The notes below the pieces were generated by a model, which was not told the origin of the DNA, searched no databases, and saw nothing but the letters and a program-made list of their open reading frames with translations. Of a stretch of 64,000 nucleotides of DNA, positions 36,462-59,077 are shown piece by piece (the first letter of the stretch is position 1; each line of letters begins with the position of its first letter). This DNA is from a virus. Lineage: Duplodnaviria > Heunggongvirae > Uroviricota > Caudoviricetes. A program made the position numbers and the translations under genes. The DNA lies in IMG/VR virus record IMGVR_UViG_3300035698_029829, positions 7,427-71,426 of that record. One strand, written 5' to 3'.

Positions 36462-36593
36462 TGACCGCGAGAGTTGGCGGTAACGGTGATTACTACGGGG
36501 ATCGAACCCGCATGACCCTTTCGGGTCGTCAGTTTTGTGGACTGATGCCTAAACCAATTCGGCGAAGTAACCGGTACCTGTGCTGCGCGGCCA
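36462..36593 (-). ncRNA. Y RNA-like module carrying a complete class II tRNA (anticodon ACA)
   Basis: TGGCCGCG/CGCGGTCA, CAGCACAG/CGCCAACTCT loop, N8 stem continuous with acceptor GGTTACT/AGTAATC. Confidence 0.72.
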
Positions 36594-36612
36594 AGACAAG
36601 ACGAGATGCTGA

Positions 36613-36688
36613 CGGGGCCAGTGGGATTCGAACCCACGATTTCTTACGTGACAGGCAAGCGGGAACGACCAGACTTCCCTATGACCCC
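36613..36688 (-). tRNA. tRNA-Asp(GTC)
   Basis: Loop CT-GTC-AC, G73. Confidence 0.88.
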
Positions 36689-36693
36689 ATAAA

Positions 36694-36783
36694 GACCCAT
36701 GCTCCTCCACCACCCGGGCGCACCCCGTGGGGCCGGGTAGACGCTTCAAGCAGGAAGAGGAGCTTCCCCACGCCGCTGGGTCA
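36694..36783 (-). ncRNA. Rod-like hairpin RNA between two tRNA-Asp genes
   Basis: Nested GACCCA/TGGGTC, GCTCCTC/GAGGAGC, CTACCCGG/CCGGGTGG. Confidence 0.5.
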
Positions 36784-36797
36784 GACGGCCTTTTATC

Positions 36798-36876
36798 TGG
36801 CGGAGCTGATGGGATTTGAACCCACGATCTCCGGATCGACAATCCGGCGAGGAAAGCCTGACTCCTCTACAGCTCC
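36798..36876 (-). tRNA. tRNA-Asp(GTC), second copy
   Basis: Loop TT-GTC-GA, CCA. Confidence 0.9.
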
Positions 36877-36884
36877 ATAAACTC

Positions 36885-37607
36885 TTAAACGTCCAACGGA
36901 ACGTGATCGCACGTCGACTCGGCGCGCTTGGTGACGACGCAGGCAACGAGGTAGCAGGCCCCGTCAAGACCGCCCACCGCCTTCGCACGCTGTGCATCAG
37001 GATCGTACTCCTCGATCTCCCACTCGCCGAGGAGCTTGCGCTCATCGGCGCACCGGCACAACGCCAGGCGCGTCAGCTCGTACTTGTTGCCGAGGTAGTA
37101 GCGAGCCAGCAATTTGGGTGAGAACGACCAGAACCCGTGGTCAACGAAGTTCGAGGCGGGCAGCATGTGCACCACCTTGCCGCCGACCTTGAGCATCCGA
37201 TGGATGTTGGCCAACGCCTGCAGTACGTTGAAGACGTGCTCCAGGGTGCCTCCATCCACGACGAGGTCGAACGGCGGAACTTGTATCGGCACGGAGGTCC
37301 AGGGCACGTTTAGATCGGCCTTGATCTCCGGTGAACCCTCATCGACCACATCTACAGCCACGACTTCGTCGTAACCGAGCAACTTGAAGAAATCCACATC
37401 AGAAATGTGACCATCCTGATTCTTCAAGATGGGCCTTCCGAGCAACGAGAGAAGGTGACCGTGACACGCAGCCAAAGCGATAAACTCGTTGTAGGTGAGG
37501 TGCACCTCCTGGCGACCCAACGTAAGTACGCGGCCGGAGGGTGTCCCCTCGTACAGCGTCTCATGGAAGAACAATTCCGCCGCGCCTTTGCTGATGCCCA
37601 TATCCAC
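36885..37607 (-). CDS. Class I SAM-dependent methyltransferase
   Basis: DLN, FDLVVDGGTLEHVFN, LKVGG. Confidence 0.75.
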   Translation of the reverse strand: MDMGISKGAAELFFHETLYEGTPSGRVLTLGRQEVHLTYNEFIALAACHGHLLSLLGRPILKNQDGHISDVDFFKLLGYDEVVAVDVVDEGSPEIKADLNVPWTSVPIQVPPFDLVVDGGTLEHVFNVLQALANIHRMLKVGGKVVHMLPASNFVDHGFWSFSPKLLARYYLGNKYELTRLALCRCADERKLLGEWEIEEYDPDAQRAKAVGGLDGACYLVACVVTKRAESTCDHVPLDV

Positions 37608-37614
37608 TCCTTGA

Positions 37615-37687
37615 GGCCGACGACAGGAATCGAACCTGCAACATCCGCATTACAGGTGCGGTGCTCTACCAATTGAGCTACGTCGGC
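37615..37687 (-). tRNA. tRNA-Thr(TGT), C33
   Basis: Loop CC-TGT-AA. Confidence 0.88.
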
Positions 37688-37693
37688 AAATTT

Positions 37694-38038
37694 TGGACGT
37701 GCGGGGAATTGAACCCCGGTCCTGAATGGTCCAGATTGAGCTACTACGTGCGTAGTCCGCGATTTAATGTCGCCGGTCGCGCTCCCACGGACGGGATCAC
37801 TATGGCCTTTTCCGCCTTTATCTCGGTTAATCACCGACGGAGTCAATCAACCCAGCCACCTGTTTGTGACGCCTCTTCCACTCCCGTTGGCCCGGAACAG
37901 AGAAACGGGTCGCTTAATTAAGCGGCCAGGAGTTCAATGTCGGCATCTGAACTTTGGTCAGTTTTTTACGAGGCCAACTGACCAACCTCGGCACGCAACT
38001 TTCACCTTCACACATCCAGTCGAATCCGATTCACGCCC
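37694..38038 (-). ncRNA. ssrA: tmRNA
   Basis: 5' GGGCGTG..GGATTCGAC, 3' T arm and CACGTCC-A with G3-U70; tag (A)DQSSDADIELLAA* after AAAAAACT. Confidence 0.92.
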
Positions 38039-38062
38039 ATATTTCAAAAAGCCGCAATAGCC

Positions 38063-38197: not shown

Positions 38198-38224
38198 TAT
38201 TTTTCAAAGATCAAAAGAAAGGCC

Positions 38225-38335: not shown

Positions 38336-38355
38336 CTATTTCAAAGATCGAAATT

Positions 38356-38505: not shown

Positions 38506-38536
38506 CCCTGAAATTTCAAAGAGCGAAGAGCGAAAC

Positions 38537-38719
38537 TTTAGCTGGTGTGCTACTACGCCAAAAGGGGGTTCCACCTTACCGTCTCCGGGGTGCTTCACCA
38601 CTTCCCCATTTACCCGCTGGCAGAACCTTTCTTGCTTTTACCACAAGGGGCTTATTACCGACGGTGGTTCGCCCTACTCTTTAGAGGGTGGCTGCCTCTA
38701 AGCCAACCTTCCAGCTAAA
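38537..38719 (-). ncRNA. Stand-alone mimic of the 23S rRNA L11-binding domain (H42-H44) with large insertion
   Basis: GCTGGAAGGTTGGCTTAGAGGCAGCCACCCTCTAAAGAGT...GCGTAGTAGCACACCAGC matches E. coli 23S 1051-1108 with compensatory pairs. Confidence 0.8.
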
Positions 38720-38889
38720 ATATTAAAGAACGAAGTCATAGGGCTCCGCGTGCCGGTTGACCCAACCGTAAGCGAGCACGTCGTCGCAGCCTCGCTATTC
38801 CGCGACGAACGAAGAACCCTTGAGGCGCATCCTACCAAACCTCGTGAGGTTTGTCAAGAGTTCTTATTACGTTTTTTGAAATTTTGTAA

Positions 38890-39145: not shown

Positions 39146-39259
39146 ATACGAGCCAACAGGTCTGTCGAGGACGAGCCTGTTGGAAAAACCGGGGAGGAGG
39201 ACGGCCCCCTCCCCGGGGTATTTCAATTTTACGCGGCATCTCTCTATTTAATTGTCAAA

Positions 39260-39637
39260 GATCGCCTTGCGCTGCGTTGCGCTGCGCGCCGCACAATTAC
39301 CAGGTCCTAAAACGTCAAAAGCCTCCCAAGTTCCCTTGAGAGGCTTCCGACTGTTGGTGACGAGGTCTGGTTTAGTCGGAAGCCCCCCGTATAGGCACGA
39401 TACCGAGCAGGCTATCAGCGGTGGACGGCAATGCCGTCACGGCCGCCGAACGCACTCCTGCTGGGCACGACGCGGTTAGCGTCGCAGCTAAGCGAGCTGT
39501 CTGTATGTGCGTGTTACGGTTCATTTCCAACCACTCCATGCGCCTTTTGGCACTAAATTTTGTTCGCGAGATAAGCGCGCCAGGCGGCCTGTGCATCTCG
39601 AAAGAAACGAAGTAGCCCAGCACTGTGCTGCGCGAAC
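39260..39637 (-). ncRNA. Large structured RNA beginning with the Y RNA-like module
   Basis: Starts at promoter 39667; GCGCAGCACAG-TGCTGGGC-TACTTCG, partner GCCCAGCA at 39459-39466, several hairpins, tandem CGCAGCGCAA near 3' end. Confidence 0.65.
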
Positions 39638-39834
39638 ACGACCAACCTAACAGAGGGCGCAAGGTTTGTCAAGAACTTTTTTTCGCTGATCGAATTTTTT
39701 TCAGTGGTAAGATAAAAGAGCTGAGAGAAAAGGGGCACTGAGATATGCGAGAGCGCCCGGAACGATTGGGATCTTGAGCGGAGGATCGGGCGCGTCATGG
39801 CTCGTTATGAACCGAAAAGGCAGGAGGTGAAGGG

Positions 39835-40266
39835 ATGAATTCGTTCAAAGATGTCATTTTTTTCATTCTTGGAATTATAGGGGTTATCTCCATTTGGGTG
39901 GGCCTTTTGATGCTCCGGAGGGATATTCGGGCCGTTTTAACGAGGAAACCGCCCCTCCGGAAAATCCCCAGCCCCAGTAACCCGACCCTGCCGCATGAAA
40001 TCGCGGAAGCCCTGAAAAACTGGGATAAAAAGCCCCAAGAAAAGGGCTTTCAGCAAGGACTCGCAGGGGATAAGGAACACACCCTGATCTGGTGGACAGA
40101 GGATGAAACATGGCGTTCAACGAGCTTCCGCCTTGCAGAAGCGAAAGCAGAAAACGATCTACCGAAATTCGAGCGGATCATAGCCAGAGCTGGCGCGACC
40201 GCTGTGGCCTATTTCCGAGCCAAGCGTGCAAAAGAAATGGATGAAGAGAAAAAAGAAGGAAAATAA
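39835..40266 (+). CDS. Membrane-anchored hypothetical protein
   Basis: SD AGGAGG; N-terminal TM helix. Confidence 0.65.
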   Translation: MNSFKDVIFFILGIIGVISIWVGLLMLRRDIRAVLTRKPPLRKIPSPSNPTLPHEIAEALKNWDKKPQEKGFQQGLAGDKEHTLIWWTEDETWRSTSFRLAEAKAENDLPKFERIIARAGATAVAYFRAKRAKEMDEEKKEGK

Positions 40267-40267
40267 T

Positions 40268-41158
40268 TTGTTAAAACAATCCCACAACGTAATCCACGGG
40301 GACGCCCTCAGCACCCTACAACTCCTGCCATCCGGCTCGATTCACTGTGCGATCACCTCGCCGCCCTACTACGGCTTACGCAACTACGGTGTTGCTGGAC
40401 AGATCGGCGCAGAACCAACGCCTCAAGAATACGTCGCTCGATTGACTGAAATTTTCCGCGAACTACGCCGTGTGTTGCGCGACGACGGCACCTTCTGGCT
40501 TAACCTCGGCGATAGCTACACGAGTGGCAATCGAACACGGCGCGCACCTGATAAGAAAAATCCAATAAGAGCGATGTCCTACCGAGCACCAACCCCAAGC
40601 GGGTTGAAAGAAAAAGACCTCATCGGCATCCCCTGGCACGTCGCCTTCGCGCTCCAAGAAGACGGGTGGTACCTCCGCTCCGACATAATCTGGCACAAGC
40701 CAAACGCCATGCCTGAGAGCATCAAAGACCGCCCAACAAAGGCACACGAGTATGTATTTCTATTAACCAAAAGCCCTCGCTACTTTTACAACGCGGATGC
40801 CGTAAAAGAACCCGAAGTCTGCGGACGTAAGAGGGGTCCCGCGCTCCATCCTTGCAAAGATACGAACGGAAATTCGGGTTTATCACGGAGAGAATCGACC
40901 GGTTTTCGCAATCGACGCACTGTCTGGACAATAAACACTAGACCCTTTAAGGGCGCACACTTCGCGGTGTTTCCCGAAGATTTAGTCGAACCTTGTCTTC
41001 TTGCCGGTTACCCAGTTGACGGCATCGTGCTCGACCCACTTTGCAGCTCTGGAACAGTCGGCGTCGTCGCCAAGAAACACGACAGATCATTCATTGGAGT
41101 CGACCTTAACGCCGATTATTGCCAAATGGCTAAACAACGGATTGAAAAAAAATTATGA
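40268..41158 (+). CDS. N4-C/N6-A DNA methyltransferase (beta class)
   Basis: TSPPYY, W.K.N..PES, HFA.FP; SAM motif reads DPLCSSGT (degenerate). Confidence 0.85.
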   Translation: MLKQSHNVIHGDALSTLQLLPSGSIHCAITSPPYYGLRNYGVAGQIGAEPTPQEYVARLTEIFRELRRVLRDDGTFWLNLGDSYTSGNRTRRAPDKKNPIRAMSYRAPTPSGLKEKDLIGIPWHVAFALQEDGWYLRSDIIWHKPNAMPESIKDRPTKAHEYVFLLTKSPRYFYNADAVKEPEVCGRKRGPALHPCKDTNGNSGLSRRESTGFRNRRTVWTINTRPFKGAHFAVFPEDLVEPCLLAGYPVDGIVLDPLCSSGTVGVVAKKHDRSFIGVDLNADYCQMAKQRIEKKL

Positions 41159-41727
41159 ACGAGCCAAAGGAATCCTTGGAAGATATTCGCCGCAAGCTGG
41201 GCGATTGCCAGCGCTGTGAACTCGCGACGACGCGCCGCAACCTGATCTTCGGCTCCGGCGACCCCGCCGCGTGCCTGATGATCGTCGGTGAAGCCCCTGG
41301 CGAGGCCGAGGATGTAATCGGTGAGCCATTCGTAGGACGCGCAGGGCAGGAACTAATGAAATGGCTGGCCGCCATGTCGCTCAGCCGCAACCAGGTCTAC
41401 ATCACTAACTGCATCAAGTGCCGTCCGCCGAATAACCGAACGCCCTACGACCAAGAGCGCCACACTTGCCTCCCCTTCCTGCGCCGCCAGGTGGCAGCTG
41501 TCGCCCCGCGCGTGATCCTGGCACTGGGTACCCCGGCAATCCAGAGCCTGCTGCCCGGGATGGGCACCATCACCCACCTGCGCGGTCAGCAGTTAGAATA
41601 CGAAGGCGTCCCCCTCATCGGCACTTATCACCCTTCGGCCGTCCTCCGTGATCGCCCTAAACTGGCGAACGTGGTTGCCGATCTCGGAGTGCTCGTCAAA
41701 ATCCTGTACGGAAAAAAGGAGAATTAA
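41155..41727 (+). CDS. Uracil-DNA glycosylase family 4
   Basis: C..C, GEAPG..ED..GEPFVGRAG, TNCIKCRPP.NR.P, YHPS. Confidence 0.92.
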   Translation: MNEPKESLEDIRRKLGDCQRCELATTRRNLIFGSGDPAACLMIVGEAPGEAEDVIGEPFVGRAGQELMKWLAAMSLSRNQVYITNCIKCRPPNNRTPYDQERHTCLPFLRRQVAAVAPRVILALGTPAIQSLLPGMGTITHLRGQQLEYEGVPLIGTYHPSAVLRDRPKLANVVADLGVLVKILYGKKEN

Positions 41728-41729
41728 AC

Positions 41730-42182
41730 ATGGACAAGAAGCTGATCTCAGTCACTGCCGACGATGTGATCCGCGTCCTCAAAGAGGCGTTCGATCTCGA
41801 CCCCACCGCCATCCAAATACTAATCGACCACCGTGTACCCTGCAACGAGGCGCTCGCCGACCATCCCACCATCCAAGTAGGAACCGCCGAGAATTGGCGC
41901 AAGTACCGACCTAAATCCCATAACCTCCCCAAAAACGCTGTCCACACAATCGGGCTACTCGGCCTGCTTAACGGCGTCTTCGGCAAGCCTGATGGTGGCC
42001 CTATCGCAGGCGCGTACGACTTCATCTGCGACTTCTGTGGAGCCACAAACGTTCCCGAATTGGACGGCAAGCGGTCGGGCGATGACTGCCCGCTCTGCGT
42101 CAACGGCACTATTCGTCTCGGTCCGATTTTCGACTTCAAAAACCTGTGGGCTCCGGAGAAGCCGAAAGAAGATAAGGAGTAG
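41730..42182 (+). CDS. Hypothetical protein with C-terminal zinc ribbon
   Basis: CDFC...CPLC. Confidence 0.6.
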   Translation: MDKKLISVTADDVIRVLKEAFDLDPTAIQILIDHRVPCNEALADHPTIQVGTAENWRKYRPKSHNLPKNAVHTIGLLGLLNGVFGKPDGGPIAGAYDFICDFCGATNVPELDGKRSGDDCPLCVNGTIRLGPIFDFKNLWAPEKPKEDKE

Positions 42183-42205
42183 GGATTAAAAAATAGAGGT
42201 AAAGA

Positions 42206-42742
42206 ATGAGCCACACCAAGCGCGGCGGCGTAATCTGGCTAACGGGACTCAGCGGCTCCGGCAAAACTACGCTCGCCGTGGCCCTGCGCGAGGCGCTCTT
42301 GACCCATTTCGGCATTTATGCCGTCGCCCTTGACGGCGATGAGGTGCGCCAAGCCCTGGGAACCTCCGGTTTTACACGCGCCAACCGAGACGCCCACATC
42401 ACACGCATGGGAAGATTAGCCTCGTTATTGGAGAAGCAAAATCACTACGTTATCTGCTCCTTCGTCAGCCCTTACGCCGAAACGCGCCAGGAAGTAAGAA
42501 CGACGTGTTCTCGCTTCCTGGAGGTCTTCATGGACTGCCCGCTGGAGGTCTGTGAAGAACGAGACCCGAAGGGCCTCTACGCCCGCGCGCGGAGAGGAGA
42601 GTTAAAGGGATTCACAGGGATCGACGATCCCTATGAGAAGCCGCATCTACCCGACGTTCACATTCATTCCCATACCATGACGATAGAGCACGAGGTCGAC
42701 CTCGTACTCCAAAAGATGATCGCGCGTTGGGTTACCGACTGA
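42206..42742 (+). CDS. cysC: Adenylyl-sulfate kinase
   Basis: TGLSGSGKTT, LDGD.VR, SFVSPY, RDPKGLY, FTGIDDPYE.P. Confidence 0.93.
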   Translation: MSHTKRGGVIWLTGLSGSGKTTLAVALREALLTHFGIYAVALDGDEVRQALGTSGFTRANRDAHITRMGRLASLLEKQNHYVICSFVSPYAETRQEVRTTCSRFLEVFMDCPLEVCEERDPKGLYARARRGELKGFTGIDDPYEKPHLPDVHIHSHTMTIEHEVDLVLQKMIARWVTD

Positions 42743-42780
42743 CTCAATATCAGTTTCATAAGCCTGTGGATAAAGAAAAT

Positions 42781-43887
42781 CTAAACCCCAAGACATTTGG
42801 TTTCAAGATATTCGATCTGAAGACGCAATTCACGTACATAAGCTACGTTTTTTTCAATTCTTAACTTTTTACCAGATACTTTCTTAACGAGACCACCGAC
42901 AACCCATTTATCAAGTTCATTGGCAATCTGGTCGTGAAGAAAACCGATCTCACTATTAAGATCATTAACCTCTTTATCAAGCTCATCGGCCCTCTGACGC
43001 AACCTTTCGGATAAACCGCGCATCTCCTCTGCGATATAATCTGAAGCCAAATGATGATATTTTCTCGACTTCTCAATCCCCAAATAATTTCGACCCAGTT
43101 TCAAAGCTTCGATGGCGGTCGTTCCCGAACCCATAAATGGGTCCAATACAAGATCGCCAGGCTTTGAAAGGAGTTTGATGAACCAAGCGAACACCTTCCC
43201 GCAGGCCATAGCACTGTGATTTTTGTACGTTCTTCCGGTCGGGAAGCACAGAACGTTGGTCGGATAAGCAAATTCACGACCAAGCCAGTTTTCTTCCTTC
43301 CTCGCGCAGCCACTCCCATTCTTAGACCGAGTATGTTTATTGTCGTTTGCTTTCTGACGGTTGAGGCGCGTCTTGGCCCATTCACCCGTCGGCACCATCA
43401 CCGCCTCTTGATCCATATAAAAATGCTTCTGCTTCGTAAAGTGCAAACCCCATTCCCAAGCATTGCGAAACCTGTTCGGCCACTTCCCAGGAAAAGGGTT
43501 GGGCTTGGTCAAGGCGTAATAATCGGTATTGATCCAGCCCTGCTGTTTAGTCATGGCGATAATGAGTTCTAAAACATACAGGTGCCGCCCCCCGTTCGCC
43601 GTCGTTCCCTCCTTGATGTTCAAGAAGAAAGAGCCAGTCGGTTTTAAGATTCTGAAAAGTTCTCTGGAGATAGGTAGGAACCACTCGACGTAACGATCCG
43701 GATCAACACCGCCGTAAGAAGCCTTCCTTTTATTACCATACGGCGGCGAGGTGGCGATTAGATCAACTGATTCTGAAGGGATGTCGCACAACAGTTTGGA
43801 GCAGTCTCCCAAAAGCACCCGATTTACGAACTCGCTCATGACCGTATCCTCCAAAGAAAGGATACACTTCCTTGGAAGGTTTGTCAA
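42781..43887 (-). CDS. N4-C/N6-A DNA methyltransferase with C-terminal coiled tail
   Basis: TSPPY, VLDPFMGSGTT; likely start at MSEF. Confidence 0.88.
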   Translation of the reverse strand: MTNLPRKCILSLEDTVMSEFVNRVLLGDCSKLLCDIPSESVDLIATSPPYGNKRKASYGGVDPDRYVEWFLPISRELFRILKPTGSFFLNIKEGTTANGGRHLYVLELIIAMTKQQGWINTDYYALTKPNPFPGKWPNRFRNAWEWGLHFTKQKHFYMDQEAVMVPTGEWAKTRLNRQKANDNKHTRSKNGSGCARKEENWLGREFAYPTNVLCFPTGRTYKNHSAMACGKVFAWFIKLLSKPGDLVLDPFMGSGTTAIEALKLGRNYLGIEKSRKYHHLASDYIAEEMRGLSERLRQRADELDKEVNDLNSEIGFLHDQIANELDKWVVGGLVKKVSGKKLRIEKNVAYVRELRLQIEYLETKCLGV

Positions 43888-43910
43888 GAGTTTTTATGTT
43901 CATATTCAAT

Positions 43911-44663: not shown

Positions 44664-44777
44664 TTCCAGCTATCGCTAACGGCACGGGAACGGCATTTCC
44701 CATTTGCTAAAGCAGCATCTCGTTTGGAATCTCACCCACCGGATGCGGATCATTACGCAAAGATTTATCTCTTGTTT

Positions 44778-48549: not shown

Positions 48550-48693
48550 GAGTCCGGCGGCGAGAGTGAGCGGCGTGGGGGTATTGGCTCACTTGGTGGG
48601 AGTTGAACCCACGTCCTTCAGATTAATAGTCTGCTGCTCTACCATCAGAGCTTCAGGTGAAGTACCCCACGCCTGTGCTGCGCCGCCAGGCTC
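48550..48693 (-). ncRNA. Y RNA-like module carrying a complete tRNA-Asn-like body (anticodon ATT)
   Basis: Begins about 14 nt after the Ro60 stop; GGCGGCG/CGCCGCC, CAGCACAG/CGCTCACTCT, N8 stem; tRNA at 48585-48660 with U1-A72, G73, CCA. Confidence 0.78.
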
Positions 48694-48706
48694 AGATTGT
48701 CAAAGA

Positions 48707-50866
48707 TCAATATGTTGCCCGAATCTCTTCGAGCGTCATCCGCTTCCGCCCGCTCTCGCTGACGGTCGCCTCAATCACCGTTTCATCGACCTCCAGATCG
48801 GCGCTCGACACCTCTGCTTTGCGCCCCACCTCAGCGGACACCATCATGTCGAAGATGTACTCGCTGAAGCCCGACAGCAGGTTTACGTTCGTGTGCCGGT
48901 CGAGCGGCGTCACCGCCATGTGGTTGTGGTCGAGGTTGACACAGTGCAACCAAGTATCCGGCTGCATCCGCTTGAACTTCTCCCACTCCCCAGCGAAGGA
49001 TAGCAACGCCCGACCATCGTTCCCCGCGAAACTGTCGGTGTAGATATTCTGGTCGTTCCAGAACTGCTGATCCGAGAACACGATCACCCGCTTGAACTTA
49101 CGACCCGTCTGAAGCAGCAACGACGGCACCAAGTGAACGTTCGTGCTGTGCCCAACGTACAAGTCGGAGTACAGTTCGTTGCGAGCGATTCGTTCCATGC
49201 TGGATACGACCGAATCGCGCTTCAGCACCTGACGGATCTGTGCGCTCTCACCGAAAGCGACAACCAGTGTGCGCGGGTTACGCTTGGCCGCGATGGCTCC
49301 GAAGAGAGCAGCCACCTCACGACAGCTGATCTCAGAACCCTGGCCCCTGGCGTCCTTCTTCTCGTCGCCACTTGACACCCGGTTATCCATCGATCCGGAC
49401 AGGTCGACCAAAATCGCGGTGTACTCGTCGGCCGCATCAGCTTCGCTCAAATTTGGTACGCTCTCGGCCTGAAGCTCCATCGCCTCGATAACCGCCTCAT
49501 GGACCTCATCGAGTTGCGGGTGCTTCTCCCAACCGGTCTTATCGCTCTTCCCAAAGGTATTCCCGCTCCATAGCTTCGCATGGATCGAACCCTTGGTGTA
49601 CAGGCCCTCAGTACCCAGCGCCCGCAGTGCCGACCAGTAACGGTACGGGAACTGCCGCGCCTTCGCGATGGCTTGCCGGTTCGTCAGCTTCGAAATCACG
49701 AGTCGCACCGTCTCGGCGTTACGCTCATCCACGAGTTTCAAGCCCTCGGCCTTCTTGACCTTCGCCCGGGCCTCGGCCCCGGCGGTCAAGATGTTCCGGA
49801 CGTTCCGCAAGAGATTCATGTACGACGTGTTCCGAGCAACCCACGCCCAAGTGCGAGCATCGGAGCCCCATTGCGACGTAACGTTCTCCTGCGTCAAACG
49901 GGCAACCTTGACGAGCCGCTCCGTCTCCGCGTCGAACTCCATCCGCTTGAATGCCTTGACGCGAGCCACGATCAGCGGCATCTCACGCTCGGCATCGAAC
50001 GGTACGATCTGCCCGCCGCAGTAGGTCTTGCCGTTGTCGGTTGATCGCTCGCAGATACCGTAATTATCAGCGAACAGCGTTCCACATTTCTCACAGACGC
50101 CGGTTGGCAGCCTGCGTTTGAGCAGGTAAAACCACTTCGCCGAGGACCACCGCTTGCGCCGACCTTTCTTACGGAAATCGACGAGATGCAGCAAATCCGT
50201 AAACGTCGGGTGCTGCTCAGTATCGTATTTCAGGAGCAATCCGGCGTCGAACCTGGTCAGCGCGTCCATAAGCCCGCGCAGAAAGGCGTTCGGGTGCTTC
50301 TTGGCACGCACGTAACCCTTGTTCACATCCAAATCACCGAAGAGTGCTTCGTAGGCGGCCAGCGCCACACGCGGCTCGTCGGCTCGCAGGCAAATCTTCG
50401 GAGCGTACAACCGCACCAGTGACTGCTGGTCAAGCTTCGTCCCTGCGAGTGGTGCCTGGAGTACCCGCGTACCGTCTTCGTGGGCGGCCACAGCCAGGAG
50501 TACCTGAGCTGCCGTCCGGATGTTAAGTTTGTCGCGCGCGAACGCGGCGATCTTAAACAAGTCGCTGGCGTACCCATCCGTGCGAGCCGCAACCTCTTGA
50601 GCCGTCTGAATCAGGACATTGTCGCCCTCAGTCAACCCCAACTCATCACGCCCCTTGTCGTAGAAACTGGTCTCCTTGAAGAAGCCCGCTGCTACCAAGT
50701 TGAGCAAGCGTTCCGACGGGTCCTTGATGTTGAATGCCAACGCACCCTCCGCGTTCTCGCCCACCTCGTCCAATTCGCGCAGGTCGACCTCAGTCTTCAC
50801 CTCGACGGCGCGAGCGCGATCCTTCAGAGTTTTCTGCGTGTTCTTCTGCATTCCGATCTTAGCCAT
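48707..50866 (-). CDS. rsr: Ro60/TROVE-domain RNA-binding protein with C-terminal vWA domain
   Basis: ERL.......E.SFY, FARDKLNIRT, RADE, KY, LLRNVRNIL, RQFPYRY.SA, VDLSGSM, FSD.Q. Confidence 0.88.
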   Translation of the reverse strand: MAKIGMQKNTQKTLKDRARAVEVKTEVDLRELDEVGENAEGALAFNIKDPSERLLNLVAAGFFKETSFYDKGRDELGLTEGDNVLIQTAQEVAARTDGYASDLFKIAAFARDKLNIRTAAQVLLAVAAHEDGTRVLQAPLAGTKLDQQSLVRLYAPKICLRADEPRVALAAYEALFGDLDVNKGYVRAKKHPNAFLRGLMDALTRFDAGLLLKYDTEQHPTFTDLLHLVDFRKKGRRKRWSSAKWFYLLKRRLPTGVCEKCGTLFADNYGICERSTDNGKTYCGGQIVPFDAEREMPLIVARVKAFKRMEFDAETERLVKVARLTQENVTSQWGSDARTWAWVARNTSYMNLLRNVRNILTAGAEARAKVKKAEGLKLVDERNAETVRLVISKLTNRQAIAKARQFPYRYWSALRALGTEGLYTKGSIHAKLWSGNTFGKSDKTGWEKHPQLDEVHEAVIEAMELQAESVPNLSEADAADEYTAILVDLSGSMDNRVSSGDEKKDARGQGSEISCREVAALFGAIAAKRNPRTLVVAFGESAQIRQVLKRDSVVSSMERIARNELYSDLYVGHSTNVHLVPSLLLQTGRKFKRVIVFSDQQFWNDQNIYTDSFAGNDGRALLSFAGEWEKFKRMQPDTWLHCVNLDHNHMAVTPLDRHTNVNLLSGFSEYIFDMMVSAEVGRKAEVSSADLEVDETVIEATVSESGRKRMTLEEIRATY

Positions 50867-50940
50867 GACACTTTCCTCCTCCGGCGAGAAATTGGTGTTG
50901 CGCCGGATTTTACGACCAGCCACCATGACCAGCCGTCACC

Positions 50941-54093: not shown

Positions 54094-54774
54094 ATGAAGC
54101 CCCAATTTTCTCCAGCTGAGTTCGCCAGCGCAAAAGGTTTTGCAAAACTACCTCTGATGTGCTGCCAATGTGGCAGCATCTTTTTCACGTCAAGAGTTTC
54201 AATCCAACAACAAATCAGCCATCCAGAGCGGAACCGCCTAAAATTTTGCGGTCGAAAATGCCTTAGCGAAGCACAAAATAAGACCAGAACCCTTACGTGC
54301 ACAAATTGCAAAGTTCCCATCAAACGAAAATTCAGCCAATTCAAGAAATCCAAAAACCATTTTTGTTCTCGCTCGTGCGCGGCCAGTTGGAACAATCTCC
54401 ACAAACAAAAAGGAACTCGCGTTTCCAAGCTAGAAATCTTCCTGCAAAAAGAGCTTTCCGTAGCCTATCCAGAAAGAAAGTTCCTCTTCAACGACAAAAC
54501 AGCCATAGATTCAGAGCTGGACATTTACATTCCAGACATTGCTCTTGCCTTTGAACTAAACGGTCCCACTCATTATAAACCTCTCTTCGGATTACGAAAA
54601 TTCGCCTCCATCCAACAGGGCGATGCCAAGAAAGTGCACGCTTGCAGGAACTACGGCATCGCGCTGTACACCCTGAACGTCAGTGGAATGAATAAATTTT
54701 CAAAGAGCCAAGCGATTCCATTCCTAAAAAAGATTCAAAAAATTATTGACTCGAACTCTGAACTCGTTCAATAA
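54094..54774 (+). CDS. Zn-finger plus PD-(D/E)xK/Vsr-like putative homing endonuclease
   Basis: Repeated CxxC..FC motifs, ELDIYIP...LAFELNG..HY; AT-rich, opposite strand to neighbours. Confidence 0.7.
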   Translation: MKPQFSPAEFASAKGFAKLPLMCCQCGSIFFTSRVSIQQQISHPERNRLKFCGRKCLSEAQNKTRTLTCTNCKVPIKRKFSQFKKSKNHFCSRSCAASWNNLHKQKGTRVSKLEIFLQKELSVAYPERKFLFNDKTAIDSELDIYIPDIALAFELNGPTHYKPLFGLRKFASIQQGDAKKVHACRNYGIALYTLNVSGMNKFSKSQAIPFLKKIQKIIDSNSELVQ

Positions 54775-55255
54775 TCTCCGTTGTGGAGGTGAGGACCTCC
54801 AGATCCGGCACAATCACCAGCCTCGCACCATTCTCCAGGCCCACAATCTTCTCAGAAGTCTCGGTTCCCTCGAACGCCTGGTTCTTAAAAAGGGACACTT
54901 CAGCCCGGCGAAACAGGTAGCCCGCCAGCGCGAGATCGCTCAGGTCATTCAAAATGAAGGTGAAGTCCACCGGCTTGAGGGAATCCACGCCAAGCGAACG
55001 GAGCTGTTCATTCATGATCGGTCGATCTAACCCCTTCTCCACACGCACCACGTGATCCGCGTCCACACCAACAACCAACAAATCGCACAGCCCCCGACAC
55101 CGCTTCAAATACAGGATGTGGTAAGCGTGGATCATGTCAAAGACCCCAGTGGTGATGCCGACCCGCATCAACCTCTTCGAAAGCCGCTGATTTAGGTATG
55201 CTTCAACTACGTCGGTCTCCGGACCACTACGGATATCGAAAATCATCGTCCTCAC
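54743..55255 (-). CDS. Cytidylyltransferase-family (RfaE/TagD-like) protein
   Basis: TGVFDMIHAYH, LVVGVD.D, K...RPI, STT.II. Confidence 0.8.
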   Translation of the reverse strand: MRTMIFDIRSGPETDVVEAYLNQRLSKRLMRVGITTGVFDMIHAYHILYLKRCRGLCDLLVVGVDADHVVRVEKGLDRPIMNEQLRSLGVDSLKPVDFTFILNDLSDLALAGYLFRRAEVSLFKNQAFEGTETSEKIVGLENGARLVIVPDLEVLTSTTEIIERVQSSSQ

Positions 55256-56184
55256 TCTCTCACTTTAACCCAGGATGGCCGTCCCGGCAGATCACGCACG
55301 TTCAAGATGGGCGGGCACTGCTTAGCCTTCCACGCACCACGGTTCGTCAGACGCACGATCTCCCCATAAGCCTCGGACGCCTTCAAGGAAGGCCATCCAC
55401 ACTGGTTAACGAGATAATCCATAAGCTCGGTCTGATCCAGACAGCCTTGAAAGTAGAAAAAGTACAGAGCCTGATCCAGCTGTTCGTAGGGCATCAACTC
55501 GTCTTCATCCAACTGTCCTTCGCTCAACTCCGCCGTGGGCTTGCGCGTAAAGACTTTCTCGGGAATCATCTGCTGCGGGTACGCCTCGTTGTAGGCACGA
55601 CCCACCTCGTAGGCTTCCGTCTTGAACAAACATCCGATCACCTCGACGGCCCCCACGGTATCGCCGTAGAGCGTGCAGTAGCCCGTCAGCGTCTCCGAGA
55701 GATTGCTGGTGGCCAGCACGAGCCGATCCAACTTATTGGCCAAGGTCATCAGTATGGTTCCACGCACACGGGCTTGGAGATTCTCTCGTGCCACGCCCTC
55801 TACGCGGAACGAGCCCGTGGGCACATCATTCATCAGCATGGCGTTCATTTCGACCAGCGCCGCAATGGGAACCGTATCAAACTGGCACCCCAACGACACC
55901 GCCACCTGATCGGCGAGCTGCTTCGACTCATCCGAGGTCACGGCCGACGGCATGAATACCGCCAGCACGTTCTGAGGTCCGAGGGTTTTACACGCAACGG
56001 CTGCTACGAGCGCAGAATCAAAGCCACCCGACAGACCAACGATGGCCTGCGTGTAGCCCGCTTCGCGAAAGAACTGGTGCAACAGAGCCACCAGATCATC
56101 GAAAATCCTGAGCCATACGGTAGTCACGGGAACCTCCCAGTTGAGTCTGGTACCAAGTCTACCAAATCGACCAGGGTTTGTCAA
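55252..56184 (-). CDS. nadE: NAD+ synthetase (no glutaminase domain)
   Basis: GLSGGFDSA, ENLQARVR, TSN.SE...GY.TLYGD, FKTE, PTAEL..GQ.DE. Confidence 0.93.
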   Translation of the reverse strand: MTNPGRFGRLGTRLNWEVPVTTVWLRIFDDLVALLHQFFREAGYTQAIVGLSGGFDSALVAAVACKTLGPQNVLAVFMPSAVTSDESKQLADQVAVSLGCQFDTVPIAALVEMNAMLMNDVPTGSFRVEGVARENLQARVRGTILMTLANKLDRLVLATSNLSETLTGYCTLYGDTVGAVEVIGCLFKTEAYEVGRAYNEAYPQQMIPEKVFTRKPTAELSEGQLDEDELMPYEQLDQALYFFYFQGCLDQTELMDYLVNQCGWPSLKASEAYGEIVRLTNRGAWKAKQCPPILNVRDLPGRPSWVKVRE

Positions 56185-56353: not shown

Positions 56354-56491
56354 TTGTGGCGAGAGTGAGCGAAGAGGGAACGTAAAAGTGCTCTACCAAC
56401 TGAGCTACGGGACCCGAAGGCCCCGACGGGACTTGAACCCGCGACCACTCGATTTGGAATCGAAGTAGCCCTCTCCTGTGCTGCGCCACAA
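56354..56491 (-). ncRNA. YrlA-type Y RNA (permuted tRNA domain, acceptor closed by UUCG)
   Basis: TTGTGGCG/CGCCACAA, module motif, TTCGA-TTCCAAA-TCGAG, T arm, CGGGGCC-TTCG-GGTCCCG, D arm. Confidence 0.82.
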
Positions 56492-56501
56492 TTTCTAAAA
56501 T

Positions 56502-56576
56502 TGGAGACGACGGTCGGAGTCGAACCGACCTATAAGGTTTTGCAGACCTTCGCCTAAACCGCTCGGCCACGTCGTC
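56502..56576 (-). tRNA. tRNA-Cys(GCA)
   Basis: Loop CT-GCA-AA, U73, CCA. Confidence 0.9.
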
Positions 56577-56725
56577 AAAAGTAACGACAACTCGGACAGG
56601 CATCACACCTGCCATCTCCTCCGGCTGAGGGCGCATACTTGAAAGCACCAACCAAGCGCAATCTTTCCACTCCCCATCCCCTTGTGGGCTCTATACTTGA
56701 GCTACGAGTCACCGGGTTTAACTGT

Positions 56726-58117
56726 TTACTGAGAAGCCAGAAATTCCCGAAGAAACATCCGGCCACCTTCCTCATCCTCAAACTTCCCGTCAAGCTGCGC
56801 TTCGAAACAGGCATCCAGCACAGGACGAAAGTGCTTGCCTGGGTTCCAACCCAGATCCATCAGGTGCCGACCCATCACAATGGGTTTCGGGGCCTGATCT
56901 CGCACGCCGAGTTCTTCGATGCGTTCCAAGAGCCACGTTGCAAACCGGTTATCAGGCTTCAAAGGAGGCCGACCGGCCTGATCGCACGCGGCTACCCGCA
57001 ACAACCGATCTACGCGCTTAACGCGACGAGCGAGCCGCCGGATCGCCGAACTAGAGGCTTTTACCTCGAAAAGTTCAAGGGGCTTCAGGTGTTCCACAAC
57101 CAAGTCGCAAACCTCGGTGTCGAGGCCGTGTTCGTTGGTCAAGCGTGCCAGGAAGCTCCGCGTCGGTGCGGCCCCCGCCGCTTCGTGTCCCTTCGACTTC
57201 CAGCGTCCATCTAAGAACGCGGTCGTCTCAGGCTTACCAAAGTCATGACAGAGTACCGCCAACCCGACCACCAGGTCTTCGCGAGAATCGCCGGTGCGTG
57301 TATGCGCGAAGGCATCCAGACAGTGCTTGGTGTGTTCAAACACATCCCCCTCGGGATGCCACGCTGGATTTTGCGGGCAATCCACGAGAGCCTCGACCTC
57401 CGGAAAGAACCGAAGCCACCCTACCTCGCGCAGGAAGTCGAGTCCAAGCGACGGTCGAACTCCCCGCAGGAGTAACTTCTGCCACTCATCGAACAGGCGT
57501 TCCTTCGGCAGATCCTCGATGTCGCCGCGCCGACAAACCTCAACGAGATCGTCGGACGGCTCAAAGTCGAACCGTGCCAGGAACTGCGCCGCTCGTAAGA
57601 CCCTCAATGGGTCCTCCAAAAAAGCGTCGGGGTTGGGGTGACCGGGCATCCGAGAAACCGGATGTAACAGGCGTGCCCGCAGATGCGTCTGACCGTCAAA
57701 CGGATCAAACAGATCATCGGTTAACGGGTCCCAGGATAAAGAGTTGATGGTGAAATCTCGACGTGCCGCCGCTTCAGCGACGGTCATGGTTGGATCGGAG
57801 TTGATCTCGAAACCTCGGTGTCCGAGACCTCGCTTGCTCTCGCGGCGAGGGATGGACACGTCGACGGGGAAATCCTTCAGTTTGAGTACACCGAAATCTT
57901 TACCAACCAGGTCAAGTGCGAAACCATGCGACAGCGTGTCGACCAATCTGTCGGGGCTAAGGCCGAAAACCTCTACGTCGAGATCATTCGGCTCATTCTC
58001 CAATAGAAGATCGCGCACACAACCGCCAACGAGTAGCGCGCGTCCACGCGCCCTCTCTACGCTCCGGCAAAGGGAAAGCAGCGCTTCCCGCGCCGGAAGC
58101 CGATGAAGTGCTTCCAT
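56726..58117 (-). CDS. cca: CCA-adding enzyme/tRNA nucleotidyltransferase with HD domain
   Basis: VGGCVRD, DLDVE, RRDFTIN, EDPLRVLR, ERL..EW.K, H.EGDV..H, LCHDFGK. Confidence 0.9.
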   Translation of the reverse strand: MEALHRLPAREALLSLCRSVERARGRALLVGGCVRDLLLENEPNDLDVEVFGLSPDRLVDTLSHGFALDLVGKDFGVLKLKDFPVDVSIPRRESKRGLGHRGFEINSDPTMTVAEAAARRDFTINSLSWDPLTDDLFDPFDGQTHLRARLLHPVSRMPGHPNPDAFLEDPLRVLRAAQFLARFDFEPSDDLVEVCRRGDIEDLPKERLFDEWQKLLLRGVRPSLGLDFLREVGWLRFFPEVEALVDCPQNPAWHPEGDVFEHTKHCLDAFAHTRTGDSREDLVVGLAVLCHDFGKPETTAFLDGRWKSKGHEAAGAAPTRSFLARLTNEHGLDTEVCDLVVEHLKPLELFEVKASSSAIRRLARRVKRVDRLLRVAACDQAGRPPLKPDNRFATWLLERIEELGVRDQAPKPIVMGRHLMDLGWNPGKHFRPVLDACFEAQLDGKFEDEEGGRMFLREFLASQ

Positions 58118-58147
58118 GATGTTCTCCCTTCGCGTTAATGTTGATAA

Positions 58148-58221
58148 CTCCTGGAGAGGGAATCGAACCCCCGACATCTCGGTTAACGGCCGAGCGCTCT
58201 GGCCTGCTGAGCTATCCAGGA
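58148..58221 (-). tRNA. tRNA-Asn(GTT), C33
   Basis: U1-A72, G73, loop CC-GTT-AA. Confidence 0.9.
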
Positions 58222-58898
58222 ATAATTCCGTACCTTTTAGCCCACTTCCGAACCGCATTGTCGGTCACTCCATACCGTTTGCCGATCTGCGTGAATGGGA
58301 TCTTCTCGTCAATCAGATTCATGAGTTCGTCTTTCGAGGGCCACTCGACTTTTCTGCGCGCCAACTGAAAGCACTTCTGTGAACAGAACTTCTGCCTTAT
58401 TTTCTTAGGAGCCCCACAGATAGGACAGGGATCAACAGGGGCCTCGCGCTTCGGAAAGGCTCTCGACTCATCGCGAAGGCTAGAAATACGCACGCGATAA
58501 TCCTCGGCCCAGAGCGGCTCTCGCCCGTTGCTCCCTTTTAACGGGGCAACCCTCAGCGAGCACCAGCTAGTACCAACAGCCTCTACCGGAACCAAATAAA
58601 CCTCATCCAGTTCAGGACAAAACACCCCAAAAAACTCACACTGGCCTCGGTAATTTCTTGTACCTCGCCCTCGGTGAGCATAGCTACTACACAAATTGAA
58701 CCCTATCGCACCGTTCTTCAAGCGACCCGTCTTAACCTGAATCCGCACAAAAACGCCGTCGCGATCAAGCACCAGGTCGTAGCGTTGATTATCGCCGAAA
58801 GGAAACAAGACAACCTCAGCCGCCTTCAACAAAGAAGCCATCACAGCCGCTTCTGACCGTTCGCCTATCGCCTTCGAGTTCATCTGCACCTCCAACAA
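58212..58898 (-). CDS. PD-(D/E)xK endonuclease of the group I intron-associated type
   Basis: G..SE, RYDLVLD..G..VRIQVKTG; CPIC and C-terminal HTH; TAG stop is U8-A9-G10 of tRNA-Asn. Confidence 0.78.
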   Translation of the reverse strand: MLEVQMNSKAIGERSEAAVMASLLKAAEVVLFPFGDNQRYDLVLDRDGVFVRIQVKTGRLKNGAIGFNLCSSYAHRGRGTRNYRGQCEFFGVFCPELDEVYLVPVEAVGTSWCSLRVAPLKGSNGREPLWAEDYRVRISSLRDESRAFPKREAPVDPCPICGAPKKIRQKFCSQKCFQLARRKVEWPSKDELMNLIDEKIPFTQIGKRYGVTDNAVRKWAKRYGIIPG

Positions 58899-58949
58899 AG
58901 TTCTACGTTATCTTCATTGGAGGTGCAGGTTCGATGTTCAATAAATAGG

Positions 58950-59077
58950 AGCGGCGAGAGTAGGTGATAAGGGGTTTTCTTACCCCGCATTGTGCGGGGT
59001 CTTGGAGTCGAACCAAGTTGCTCTAGCTTTGGAAGCTATTGCTTAACCGAAGTATCCCTGATCTGTGCTGCGCCGCT
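58950..59077 (-). ncRNA. Y RNA-like gene with a differently permuted tRNA-Trp mimic
   Basis: AGCGGCG/CGCCGCT, module motif, CTT-CGGTT-AAG, TAGC-TTCCAAA-GCTA, T arm, ACCCCGCA-CAA-TGCGGGGT. Confidence 0.75.

What the first reader, a model, noticed from the sequence alone, without database searches (positions are those of the whole stretch)
36462..59077. Ro60 plus a family of five Y RNA-like genes with one shared module and interchangeable cargo
Seen: five dispersed loci share GCGCAGCACAG-N8-TACTTC with exactly 8 nt between blocks (+ strand positions 36578, 39623, 48673, 56476, 59063). In each, N8 differs but pairs with a 3' strand. In four, the opposite loop strand is C(G/A)CNNACTCT and the outer stem closes with GCG/CGC. 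Cargo differs: whole class II tRNA, non-tRNA domain, whole tRNA-Asn, and two different permutations of a tRNA-Trp mimic. One copy starts right after the Ro60 stop. Established: bacterial Ro60 binds Y RNAs; YrlA has a tRNA-like domain; Y RNAs tether Ro60 to partner proteins. Inference: a modular adaptor system in which one Ro60 is directed to different partners or decoy targets by swapping RNA cargo. I know of one or two Y RNAs per locus, not a diversified family with intact tRNAs as cargo.
Basis: partly seen in the sequence, partly recalled or inferred. Interest (0 to 1): 0.93.

Follow-up and report, generated by a model that had tools for sequence, protein, structure and literature searches.

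The report
Five phage Y RNAs, one handle
An uncultured salt-lake phage encodes a Ro60 ring protein and five small RNAs that share one docking stem but carry different, mostly tRNA-shaped, tops; two of them enclose a complete tRNA cloverleaf, a layout I did not find in the Y RNA papers I searched.

Summary
All five copies, not four, are complete two-stranded modules on the minus strand. Each has an outer stem of at least 7 bp, a 5' loop CAGCACA, a covarying 9-bp inner stem, UACUUC, the cargo, an 8-9 nt 3' loop ending A(C)UCU, and the closing outer stem.

The 719-aa TROVE protein folds as Ro60. One RNA is YrlA-like and one is a short YrlB-like hairpin at its own promoter. One has a T arm and a closed acceptor-like hairpin but no D arm. 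Two enclose whole tRNA cloverleaves in native order. The copy just after the Ro60 stop recurs in two related metagenomic lineages with compensatory changes, a kept GCCA and a drifting anticodon loop. A cargo-less miniature of the module lies on the Ro60 ribosome-binding site, which suggests autoregulation.

The "modular adaptor" idea is the standard Y RNA model, not a new concept. Streptomyces phage LuckySocke and related contigs carry tandem arrays of up to five analogous modules. Earlier notes of this scan report many similar phage families on other DNA. What looks new is the enclosed whole tRNAs, the scattering through the tRNA island, and the leader mimic. Binding and function are untested. 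Verdict: new variant of a known kind.

The parts
36463..36592 (-). Y-like RNA a. Module enclosing a class II-type tRNA cloverleaf with a long variable arm, anticodon loop CCACAAA (C33) and no CCA.
   Evidence: Module geometry. ARAGORN 36485-36572 and Rfam tRNA 44.6 bits. Fold.
39562..39637 (-). Y-like RNA b. Complete module with a short apical hairpin whose loop is pyrimidine-rich (UUUC), YrlB-like. It sits at the 5' end of its own transcript.
   Evidence: Centroid fold and structure scan.
39644..39672 (-). Promoter-like site TTGACA-N17-TAGGTT, placing the transcript start about 7 nt before RNA b.
   Evidence: Sequence. The same CTTGACAAAC-type site occurs four times on this strand. The tool's own consensus scan did not list it.
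39189..39216 (-). Intrinsic-terminator-like hairpin (12 pairs plus a T run) ending the roughly 450-nt unit that starts with RNA b.
48550..48693 (-). Y-like RNA c. Module with a 13-bp outer stem enclosing a class I tRNA cloverleaf with A8:U14, G73-CCA and anticodon loop CUAUUAA. It begins 13 nt after the Ro60 stop.
   Evidence: Conserved in L012/L017 and L013/L014/L016, with 9 compensatory pairs. Flank duplex -43 kcal/mol against a mean of -15.
48707..50866 (-). Ro60/TROVE protein gene, 719 aa from ATG 50866. The 739-aa ORF listed by the tool starts at an upstream in-frame codon.
   Evidence: Pfam TROVE 32 bits, cutoff 23. AlphaFold2 model pLDDT 70.9. The 13 best Foldseek PDB matches are all Ro60, E down to 5e-14, TM 0.58-0.64 by target.
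50881..50906 (-). Leader hairpin CCGGCG-CAACACCAAUUUCU-CGCCGG abutting the Shine-Dalgarno GGAGGAGG of the Ro60 gene. It looks like the module with inner stem and cargo removed.
   Evidence: Sequence. It is the only GCGCARC...TCTCGC hairpin in the 156.7-kb contig, where 0.33 are expected anywhere. A hairpin at the same place is kept in L012 and L013.
56355..56490 (-). Y-like RNA d. Canonical YrlA layout: V hairpin, T arm, UUCG-closed acceptor-like stem, D arm.
   Evidence: Rfam YrlA 46.4 bits, E 1e-7. Fold. Module.
58950..59077 (-). Y-like RNA e. Hairpin with UUCCAAA loop, T arm, 7-bp closed acceptor-like hairpin, no D arm.
   Evidence: No Rfam or ARAGORN hit.
56726..58258 (-). CCA-adding enzyme / poly(A) polymerase family gene with an HD domain, lying between RNAs d and e.
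   Evidence: Pfam PolyA_pol 58 bits, PolyA_pol_RNAbd and HD.
19147..20337 (-). RtcB RNA ligase gene at the edge of the tRNA island.
   Evidence: Pfam RtcB 239 bits.
37691..38038 (-). tmRNA gene inside the same island. This is context, and it indicates a bacterial host.
   Evidence: Rfam tmRNA 162.6 bits. ARAGORN.

Best explanation
The five elements are a paralogous family of phage Y RNAs. Each folds so that its 5' and 3' ends form one constant docking module: outer stem, asymmetric internal loop (CAGCACA opposite NNNNACUCU), 9-bp inner stem, then UACUUC. I infer that this module is bound by the phage's own Ro60 ring protein.

The module is a lineage-specific version of the Rsr/Ro60-binding module of YrlA. 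The UAC in UACUUC corresponds to the conserved YUAY box of YrlA.

On top of the module sit five different effector domains:
- a YrlA-type permuted tRNA mimic;
- a permuted mimic without a D arm;
- a short YrlB-type hairpin;
- two complete tRNA cloverleaves in native gene order, whose acceptor ends are locked into the module.

Four are cut out of the long tRNA transcripts. One heads its own promoter-to-terminator unit.

Together with RtcB, a CCA-adding enzyme, tmRNA and about 50 tRNAs, they probably form a tRNA maintenance and repair platform that keeps phage translation running when host defences attack tRNAs. The tRNA-shaped tops would recruit tRNA-binding factors or stand in for tRNAs. Ro60 probably limits its own synthesis by binding a cargo-less copy of the module that overlaps its ribosome-binding site.

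Shown here: the sequences, the folds, the covariation, the Ro60 fold and the synteny. Inferred: Ro60 binding, processing, autoregulation and the biological role.
For: - Motif: five exact copies where none is expected, and no others in the contig.
- Geometry: it is constant, and stems covary while loops stay fixed. Inner-stem columns show up to four pair types.
- Likeness to YrlA: RNA d hits Rfam YrlA at 46.4 bits, above the hits beside the Ro genes of two cultured phages (Cali 36.1, LuckySocke 33.8). LuckySocke RNAs use the same plan (outer stem, GAUGCGYA, inner stem, UACUUC, cargo, YUUUCUA, outer stem) directly upstream of their Ro gene. Cali has UUACCUC at that place.
- Protein: it is a Ro60 by fold and by Pfam TROVE.
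- Co-occurrence: every complete module found outside this genome (L012, L013/L014/L016, L017) lies directly after a homologous TROVE gene with 77% or 57% identity.
- Conservation: 9 of 39 pairs change on both sides and stay paired among three lineages.
- Leader mimic on the Ro60 Shine-Dalgarno.
- RtcB and a CCA-adding enzyme lie in the same island. This parallels the Salmonella rsr-yrlBA-rtcBA operon and the view of TROVE plus a tRNA-like partner as an RNA repair platform (PMC7790460, PMC7824862).
Against: - No binding, expression or processing data exist for this phage.
- The 5' loop matches the published Ro60 motif GNCGAAN0-1G only as GGCGCAG (6 of 7).
- No copy reaches the Rfam YrlA gathering score.
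- Four of the five lie 5.5-12 kb from the Ro60 gene, outside the 4-kb rule used by Chen et al. 2014.
- Only three lineages are available, and only for the copy next to Ro60, so the other four rest on paralogue comparison alone.
- The Ro60 is very divergent: 14-18% identity to solved structures, about 200 residues longer, and a model of only moderate confidence.
Confidence: 0.78

Rival explanations
1. RNAs a and c are precursors of working tRNAs. The module would be a leader-trailer lock, perhaps held by Ro60, that delays RNase P and 3' trimming. The phage would then release unusual decoders (anticodons ACA, AUU) only at a certain time or under a certain condition.
For: - Both score as tRNAs (55.9 and 44.6 bits, within the range of the phage's other tRNAs).
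- RNA c keeps G73-CCA in all three lineages, and its cloverleaf covaries.
- Half of the phage's tRNA genes also encode CCA.
- M. smegmatis YrlA is cleaved by RNase P and receives CCA in vivo (PMC4201824).
- A CCA-adding enzyme is encoded nearby.
Against: - The anticodon loop of RNA c reads CUAUUAA, CUCUUAA or an 8-nt AUCUUAAA in three close lineages. This is not the behaviour of a decoder.
- RNA c has A8:U14 instead of U8:A14 in all three lineages.
- RNA a has C33 and no CCA.
- The ends are buried in a duplex of -43 kcal/mol.
- Standard tRNA-Asn, Lys and Cys genes exist separately.
Confidence: 0.14
2. The module has nothing to do with Ro60. It would be a processing or stabilising stem (for example an RNase III-type site or a site for another phage protein) used to punctuate the long tRNA transcripts.
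For: - Four copies lie between tRNA genes in polycistronic units.
- Long leader-trailer stems with internal loops are typical RNase III sites (general knowledge).
- Four copies are far from the Ro60 gene.
Against: - Only 5 of about 55 RNA genes carry it.
- The loops are sequence-invariant while the stems covary, which points to a sequence-specific binder.
- The plan and the UACUUC box match RNAs placed next to Ro genes in unrelated phages.
- A miniature sits on the Ro60 ribosome-binding site.
- All outside copies directly follow a TROVE gene.
Confidence: 0.06
3. The copies are remnants of a repeated mobile or recombination element that happens to flank tRNA-sized inserts, with no RNA-level function.
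For: The flanks are identical around different inserts.
Against: - The 8 variable bases always change together with their partner strand.
- All copies are on the transcribed strand.
- There are compensatory changes across lineages.
- No transposase, target duplications or DNA-level inverted termini were seen.
Confidence: 0.02

Closest known systems
YrlA / YrlB Y RNAs bound by bacterial and mycobacteriophage Ro60 (Rsr); Rfam RF02553; Chen et al. 2014 PMC4201824; Wang et al. 2018 10.1101/312249
   Same: - Ends pair into a stem with an internal loop that carries the protein-binding motif.
- A conserved UA(Y) box follows the stem.
[quoted passage not shown]
- They are encoded on the same strand as Ro60, and several occur per genome.
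- They are processed from longer transcripts.
- RtcB is nearby.
   Different: - The 5' motif is GGCGCAG rather than GNCGAAN0-1G, and both loop strands are invariant.
- There are five members spread over 22.6 kb of a tRNA island rather than one or two within 4 kb.
- Two members hold a complete cloverleaf in native order, with anticodon arm and (in one) CCA, joined to the module through the acceptor end instead of the anticodon stem.
- None reaches the Rfam gathering score.
Unannotated tandem Y-like RNA array of Streptomyces phage LuckySocke (OR725497, 10253-10900) and related ~112-kb IMG/VR contigs, found here
   Same: - Up to five copies share one module (outer stem, GAUGCGYA, covarying inner stem, UACUUC, cargo, YUUUCUA, outer stem) with different cargos (17-97 nt), next to a Ro gene inside a tRNA cluster.
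   Different: - The copies are tandem within about 650 bp, directly upstream of Ro.
- The loop sequences differ.
- No cargo is a true whole tRNA. The ARAGORN calls there start inside the module and look spurious.
- No mini-module lies on the Ro leader.
Thermus phage phiLo Ro60 with Yrl1 and Yrl2 (PMC12135203; PDB 9KOP, 9L5Y)
   Same: - A phage Ro60 with phage-encoded Y-like RNAs of stem-bulge-stem form. Binding was shown there, together with a ternary complex with host PNPase.
- The structures are among the best fold matches of the protein here.
   Different: - There are two RNAs, both adjacent to the gene, with a CGAA motif.
- The passages I read describe no tRNA-shaped cargo.
Bas63 gp130, a Ro60-like protein that counters the Ppl defence system (PhageMaP preprint 10.1101/2024.10.10.617714)
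   Same: - A Ro60-like gene at the head of a phage tRNA cluster.
- The authors suggest that some annotated tRNAs may be Y RNAs.
- It gives a tested phenotype, counter-defence, for a phage Ro60-like protein.
   Different: - The protein lineage is different.
- No RNAs were defined there.
- No link to this module was tested here.

Membership tests
Y RNA, YrlA type (Rfam RF02553) | Score at or above the Rfam gathering threshold (69 bits) | tested here: not met
   RNA d scores 46.4 bits, E 1e-7. The other four have no YrlA hit of their own. The YrlA hits beside the Ro genes of phages Cali and LuckySocke score 36.1 and 33.8 bits, so the threshold is strict for phage members.
Y RNA, YrlA type (Rfam RF02553) | Permuted tRNA-like domain: T arm, closed acceptor-like stem, D arm | tested here: met
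   Met for RNA d only. RNA e lacks the D arm, RNAs a and c are not permuted, and RNA b has no tRNA-like part.
Y RNA (general) | 5' and 3' ends pair into a stem with an internal loop or bulge carrying the Ro60-binding motif (GNCGAAN0-1G in bacteria) | tested here: inconclusive
   The stem-loop-stem is present in all five and covaries. The motif reads GGCGCAG, matching 6 of 7 positions, and the LuckySocke analogue reads (G/C)CGAUG.
Y RNA (general) | Encoded near a Ro60/TROVE gene and on the same strand | tested here: met
   All five are on the Ro60 strand. RNA c lies 13 nt after the stop. The others lie 5.5-12 kb away in the same tRNA island. Every outside copy directly follows a TROVE gene.
Y RNA (general) | Physically bound by Ro60 | not testable with these tools
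   This needs EMSA or pull-down. No RNA sequencing run holds this phage.
Ro60 / TROVE protein | TROVE domain and Ro60 ring fold with a C-terminal vWA domain | tested here: met
   Pfam TROVE 32 bits, above the cutoff of 23. The vWA_Ro60 hit is weak in this protein and reaches Pfam's cutoff only in homologue P0004. Foldseek ranks 13 Ro60 chains first (E 5e-14 to 4e-11), followed by MIDAS/vWA domains.
Working (decoding) tRNA, for the cargos of RNAs a and c | Cloverleaf scoring as tRNA | tested here: met
   Rfam tRNA 44.6 and 55.9 bits against a gathering score of 29. ARAGORN calls both.
Working (decoding) tRNA, for the cargos of RNAs a and c | Canonical core (U8:A14, U33), accessible ends, and an anticodon stable among close relatives | tested here: not met
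   RNA c has A8:U14 in three lineages, and its anticodon loops read CUAUUAA, CUCUUAA and AUCUUAAA. RNA a has C33 and no CCA. The flanks are base-paired.
YrlB-type Y RNA | Long hairpin with the Ro60 motif and a small pyrimidine-rich apical loop (PMC4201824) | tested here: met
   RNA b is a 76-nt module with an apical stem CGUUUC/GAGAUG and loop UUUC. This is a resemblance of shape only.

The most novel reading that the evidence does not exclude
The whole tRNAs locked into the module would be Ro60-held tRNA surrogates: baits or sensors for host enzymes that cut or modify tRNAs. The anticodon loop would change quickly in an arms race, while the elbow, the acceptor stem and CCA are kept. The neighbouring RtcB and CCA-adding enzyme would repair what is damaged. 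A single Ro60 would thus be aimed at several tRNA-directed host factors by exchanging the top of the RNA.
Probability: 0.17. Interest if true: 0.85.

Novelty: new variant of a known kind. Interest (0 to 1): 0.56.

Why it matters
What the tRNA-like half of bacterial Y RNAs is for has been open since 2014. This phage mounts five different tops on one identical docking module. They include full cloverleaves with an anticodon arm and a CCA end, a canonical YrlA top, a top without a D arm, and a bare hairpin.

That makes a natural comparison set. One protein and five short RNAs, all easy to synthesise, could show which tRNA features recruit which partner.

The cargo-less mimic on the Ro60 ribosome-binding site, if real, would be the first hint I found of Ro60 autoregulation through a Y RNA look-alike.

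There is also an annotation consequence. Such RNAs are called as odd tRNAs (here 'Cys-ACA' and 'Asn-AUU'; in LuckySocke 'Ser-GCT'), which inflates the tRNA counts of phages.

Tried and rejected
- Exact motif in IMG/VR: six hits, all inside coding sequence without a 3' partner, so chance.
- Full two-strand pattern: nothing in IMG/VR; in JGI metagenomes only the two lineages already found through the protein.
- Megablast and a protein-pattern scan for close relatives of the Ro60 region found nothing. Relatives came only from the large protein collection.
- Phmmer of the protein against PDB sequences was not significant (E 0.58). Only the fold comparison identified Ro60.
- My first strict scan missed the 3' half of the 39.6-kb copy. 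I had provisionally paired it with GCCCAGCAG near 39470, which would have enclosed a 55-codon ORF. The centroid fold and a structure-based scan replaced that with a much closer, fully consistent partner.
- More distant Ro60 loci (P0006, P0011, P0012, P0017, Cali, HGTV-1) do not contain this module by a loose pattern. Their own Y RNAs were not worked out.
- ARAGORN on 30 LuckySocke-type modules gave three tRNA calls, all starting inside the module. I rejected them as enclosed tRNAs.
- Sequencing runs: eight salt-lake DNA holders and no RNA holder listed. No reads were laid.
- The consensus promoter scan found no site at 39.6 kb. The TTGACA-N17-TAGGTT site was found by eye and by a custom pattern.
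- I did not test whether CAGCACA belongs to the 'CAGCAA handle' families named in earlier notes of this scan.

Full report
**Setting**

The window is part of a 156.7-kb IMG/VR virus contig (CheckV completeness 62%). It is held by DNA runs labelled salt lake metagenome. Between about 21 and 60 kb, everything relevant lies on the minus strand:
- 50 ARAGORN tRNA calls and a tmRNA;
- an RtcB ligase gene at 19147-20337;
- a CCA-adding-enzyme-type gene at 56726-58258;
- a TROVE-domain gene at 48707-50866.

The tmRNA points to a bacterial host.

**Observation**

GCGCAGCACAG-N8-TACTTC occurs five times without a mismatch, all on the minus strand. None of 100 shuffles gave a match, and the rest of the contig has no further copy.

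Extracting both strands shows one fixed geometry:
- an outer stem of at least 7 bp ending GCG/CGC;
- a 7-nt 5' loop, CAGCACA;
- a 9-bp inner stem made of the G that ends the motif plus N8;
- UACUUC;
- the cargo;
- the 3' strand of the inner stem;
- a 3' loop;
- the outer stem.

Four 3' loops are 9 nt and read NNNNACUCU. A centroid fold and a structure-based scan place its 3' half only 23 nt after UACUUC: inner strand GCCUGGCGC (9 of 9 pairs), loop GCUUAUCU, outer strand CGCGAAC (7 of 7). So all five are complete.

The loops are invariant while the inner stem differs in every copy and stays paired. Single columns show up to four pair types. That pattern fits an RNA recognised through its loops. 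It does not fit a DNA repeat.

**The protein**

The called product is 719 aa, starting at ATG 50866. Pfam finds TROVE above its cutoff and only weak vWA signals, and sequence comparison with PDB chains is not significant.

I built an AlphaFold2 model on 17 homologues. It has mean pLDDT 70.9. Its 13 best Foldseek matches in the PDB are all Ro60 (frog, human, Deinococcus and Thermus phage phiLo), with E 5e-14 to 4e-11 and TM 0.58-0.64 by target. vWA/MIDAS domains follow. It is a divergent, enlarged Ro60.

**Why the module is a Ro60 handle (inference from four lines)**

1. RNA d (56490-56355) hits Rfam YrlA over the full model at 46.4 bits, E 1e-7. That is below the gathering score of 69, but above the YrlA hits beside the Ro genes of mycobacteriophage Cali (36.1) and Streptomyces phage LuckySocke (33.8).
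2. The RNAs next to the LuckySocke Ro gene have the same plan and the identical UACUUC box: outer stem, GAUGCGYA, inner stem, UACUUC, cargo, YUUUCUA, outer stem. Cali has UUACCUC at that position. UAC after the binding stem corresponds to the conserved YUAY/UA of YrlA (PMC4201824; 10.1101/312249). The 5' side here, GGCGCAG, matches the published GNCGAAN0-1G in 6 of 7 places.
3. Every complete module found outside this genome follows a homologous TROVE gene directly. These are L012 and L017 (protein 77% identical) and L013/L014/L016 (57%).
4. The Ro60 gene is preceded by the hairpin CCGGCG-CAACACCAAUUUCU-CGCCGG, which runs into the Shine-Dalgarno GGAGGAGG. It looks like the module with inner stem and cargo deleted. 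It is the only such hairpin in the contig, where 0.33 are expected anywhere. L012 and L013 keep a hairpin there, and the L013 loop follows that lineage's own module variant (CAGC...AACUUCU). The simplest reading is translational autoregulation.

**The five cargos**

- **RNA a (36592-36463)** holds a class II-type cloverleaf (Rfam tRNA 44.6 bits). It has a long variable arm, anticodon loop CCACAAA (C at position 33) and no CCA. The UACU of the box forms part of its acceptor stem.
- **RNA b (39637-39562)** has only a short hairpin with a UUUC loop. This is the shape described for YrlB and Yrn2 (PMC4201824). It begins about 7 nt after a TTGACA-N17-TAGGTT site. That is one of four CTTGACAAAC-type sites on this strand. 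A strong terminator follows at 39216-39189, so it heads a unit of about 450 nt of unknown content.
- **RNA c (48693-48550)** holds a class I cloverleaf (55.9 bits) with G73-CCA.
- **RNA d** is the YrlA layout.
- **RNA e (59077-58950)** has a hairpin with the same UUCCAAA loop as RNA d, a perfect T arm and a 7-bp closed acceptor-like hairpin, but no D arm.

So the four long cargos are tRNA-shaped in three topologies. Cargo length stays within 74-82 nt.

**Are the two whole cloverleaves working tRNAs?**

Probably not.

For RNA c, three lineages can be compared. RNAalifold predicts 39 pairs. Nine of them have changes on both sides with pairing kept, in the inner stem, the acceptor stem and the T stem. 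The swapped tertiary pair A8:U14 and the GCCA are kept.

The anticodon loop is not kept. It reads CUAUUAA here, CUCUUAA in L012/L017 and an 8-nt AUCUUAAA in L013.

The flanks of this tRNA form a duplex of -43 kcal/mol, against a mean of -15 (sd 6) for the 50 tRNA calls. Ordinary Asn, Lys and Cys tRNAs are encoded elsewhere.

I give the rival, regulated release of real tRNAs, about 0.14. [quoted passage not shown]

**How new is it?**

The idea that Y RNAs consist of a Ro60-binding module and an effector module is established. So is the presence of several Y RNAs per organism that may aim Ro60 at different partners (PMC4201824; 10.1101/312249).

Families of this size also exist elsewhere:
- LuckySocke has five tandem modules, unannotated except that the fifth is called tRNA-Ser(gct).
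- Related ~112-kb IMG/VR contigs have 2-5.
- Earlier notes of this scan report many phage families with a 'CAGCAA handle' beside Ro60-like genes, including tRNA shapes on handles. I treat those as leads and did not test the link.

I did not find any of the following in the papers I searched or in the LuckySocke-type arrays:
- a native-order, complete cloverleaf joined to the handle through its acceptor end, conserved in three lineages;
- the scattering of members over 22.6 kb of a tRNA island;
- the leader mimic.

Hence: new variant of a known kind.

**Likely role**

The island combines Ro60, Y RNAs, RtcB, a CCA-adding enzyme, tmRNA and a near-complete tRNA set.

This mirrors the rsr-yrlBA-rtcBA operon, which responds to damaged tRNAs (PMC7790460). 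It also mirrors the proposal that TROVE with a tRNA-like partner is an RNA repair platform in large phages (PMC7824862). A Ro60-like protein of phage Bas63 counters the Ppl defence (10.1101/2024.10.10.617714), and phiLo Ro60 with its Yrl RNAs recruits host PNPase (PMC12135203).

I therefore favour a tRNA maintenance or counter-defence role. The tops would either recruit tRNA-binding factors or act as tRNA stand-ins. None of this is shown for this phage.

Noticed in passing
window 33527-33681 (-): Two adjacent tRNA-like genes: one with anticodon CTA (ARAGORN labels it Pyl; it would read the amber codon) and one with an 8-nt anticodon loop ('ttaa'). They may be suppressor or frameshift-type tRNAs in a phage that otherwise uses code 11 ORFs.
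   Followed up: no
window 38537-38719 (-), promoter-like site at 38857: Rfam places a weak bacterial 23S rRNA fragment hit (model positions 1095-1146, 20.9 bits) at 38663-38712. It lies downstream of a CTTGACAAAC-type promoter site.
   Followed up: no
window 48697-48712 (-); L012 about 4018-4030; L013 about 2912-2924: A boxA-like sequence (TGATCTTTGACAA; relatives have TGATCTTTGATAA and TGATCTTTTATAA) overlaps the Ro60 stop codon just before RNA c and is kept in both related lineages.
   Followed up: partly
L021 (Streptomyces phage LuckySocke OR725497) 10253-10900: Five tandem Y-like RNAs upstream of the Ro gene are unannotated in the record. The fifth is annotated as tRNA-Ser(gct) 10738-10811, a call that begins inside the shared module and is probably wrong.
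   Followed up: partly
window 39268-39295 (-): The transcript that starts with RNA b contains a short tandem GCGCAGCGCAAC / GCAGCGCAAG repeat that resembles the 5' strand of the module, and a possible 55-codon ORF (ATG 39539 to TAA 39372) with a weak ribosome-binding site and no family hit.
   Followed up: partly
window 16336, 17326, 38857, 39672 (-): Four sites share CTTGACAAAC-N-TA(G/T)(G/T)(T/A)T. This looks like this phage's own promoter class. A similar site follows the tRNA block in relative L012 (about 4455).
   Followed up: partly
window 40226-45674: A cluster of three DNA methyltransferase genes (two N6/N4 type, one C5 type) interrupts the tRNA island between RNA b and the Ro60 region.
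   Followed up: no
window 26723-27400, 54743-56184 (-): Two cytidylyltransferase-like genes and an NAD synthase gene lie among the tRNAs, in line with the NAD salvage genes noted by an earlier report on this genome.
   Followed up: no
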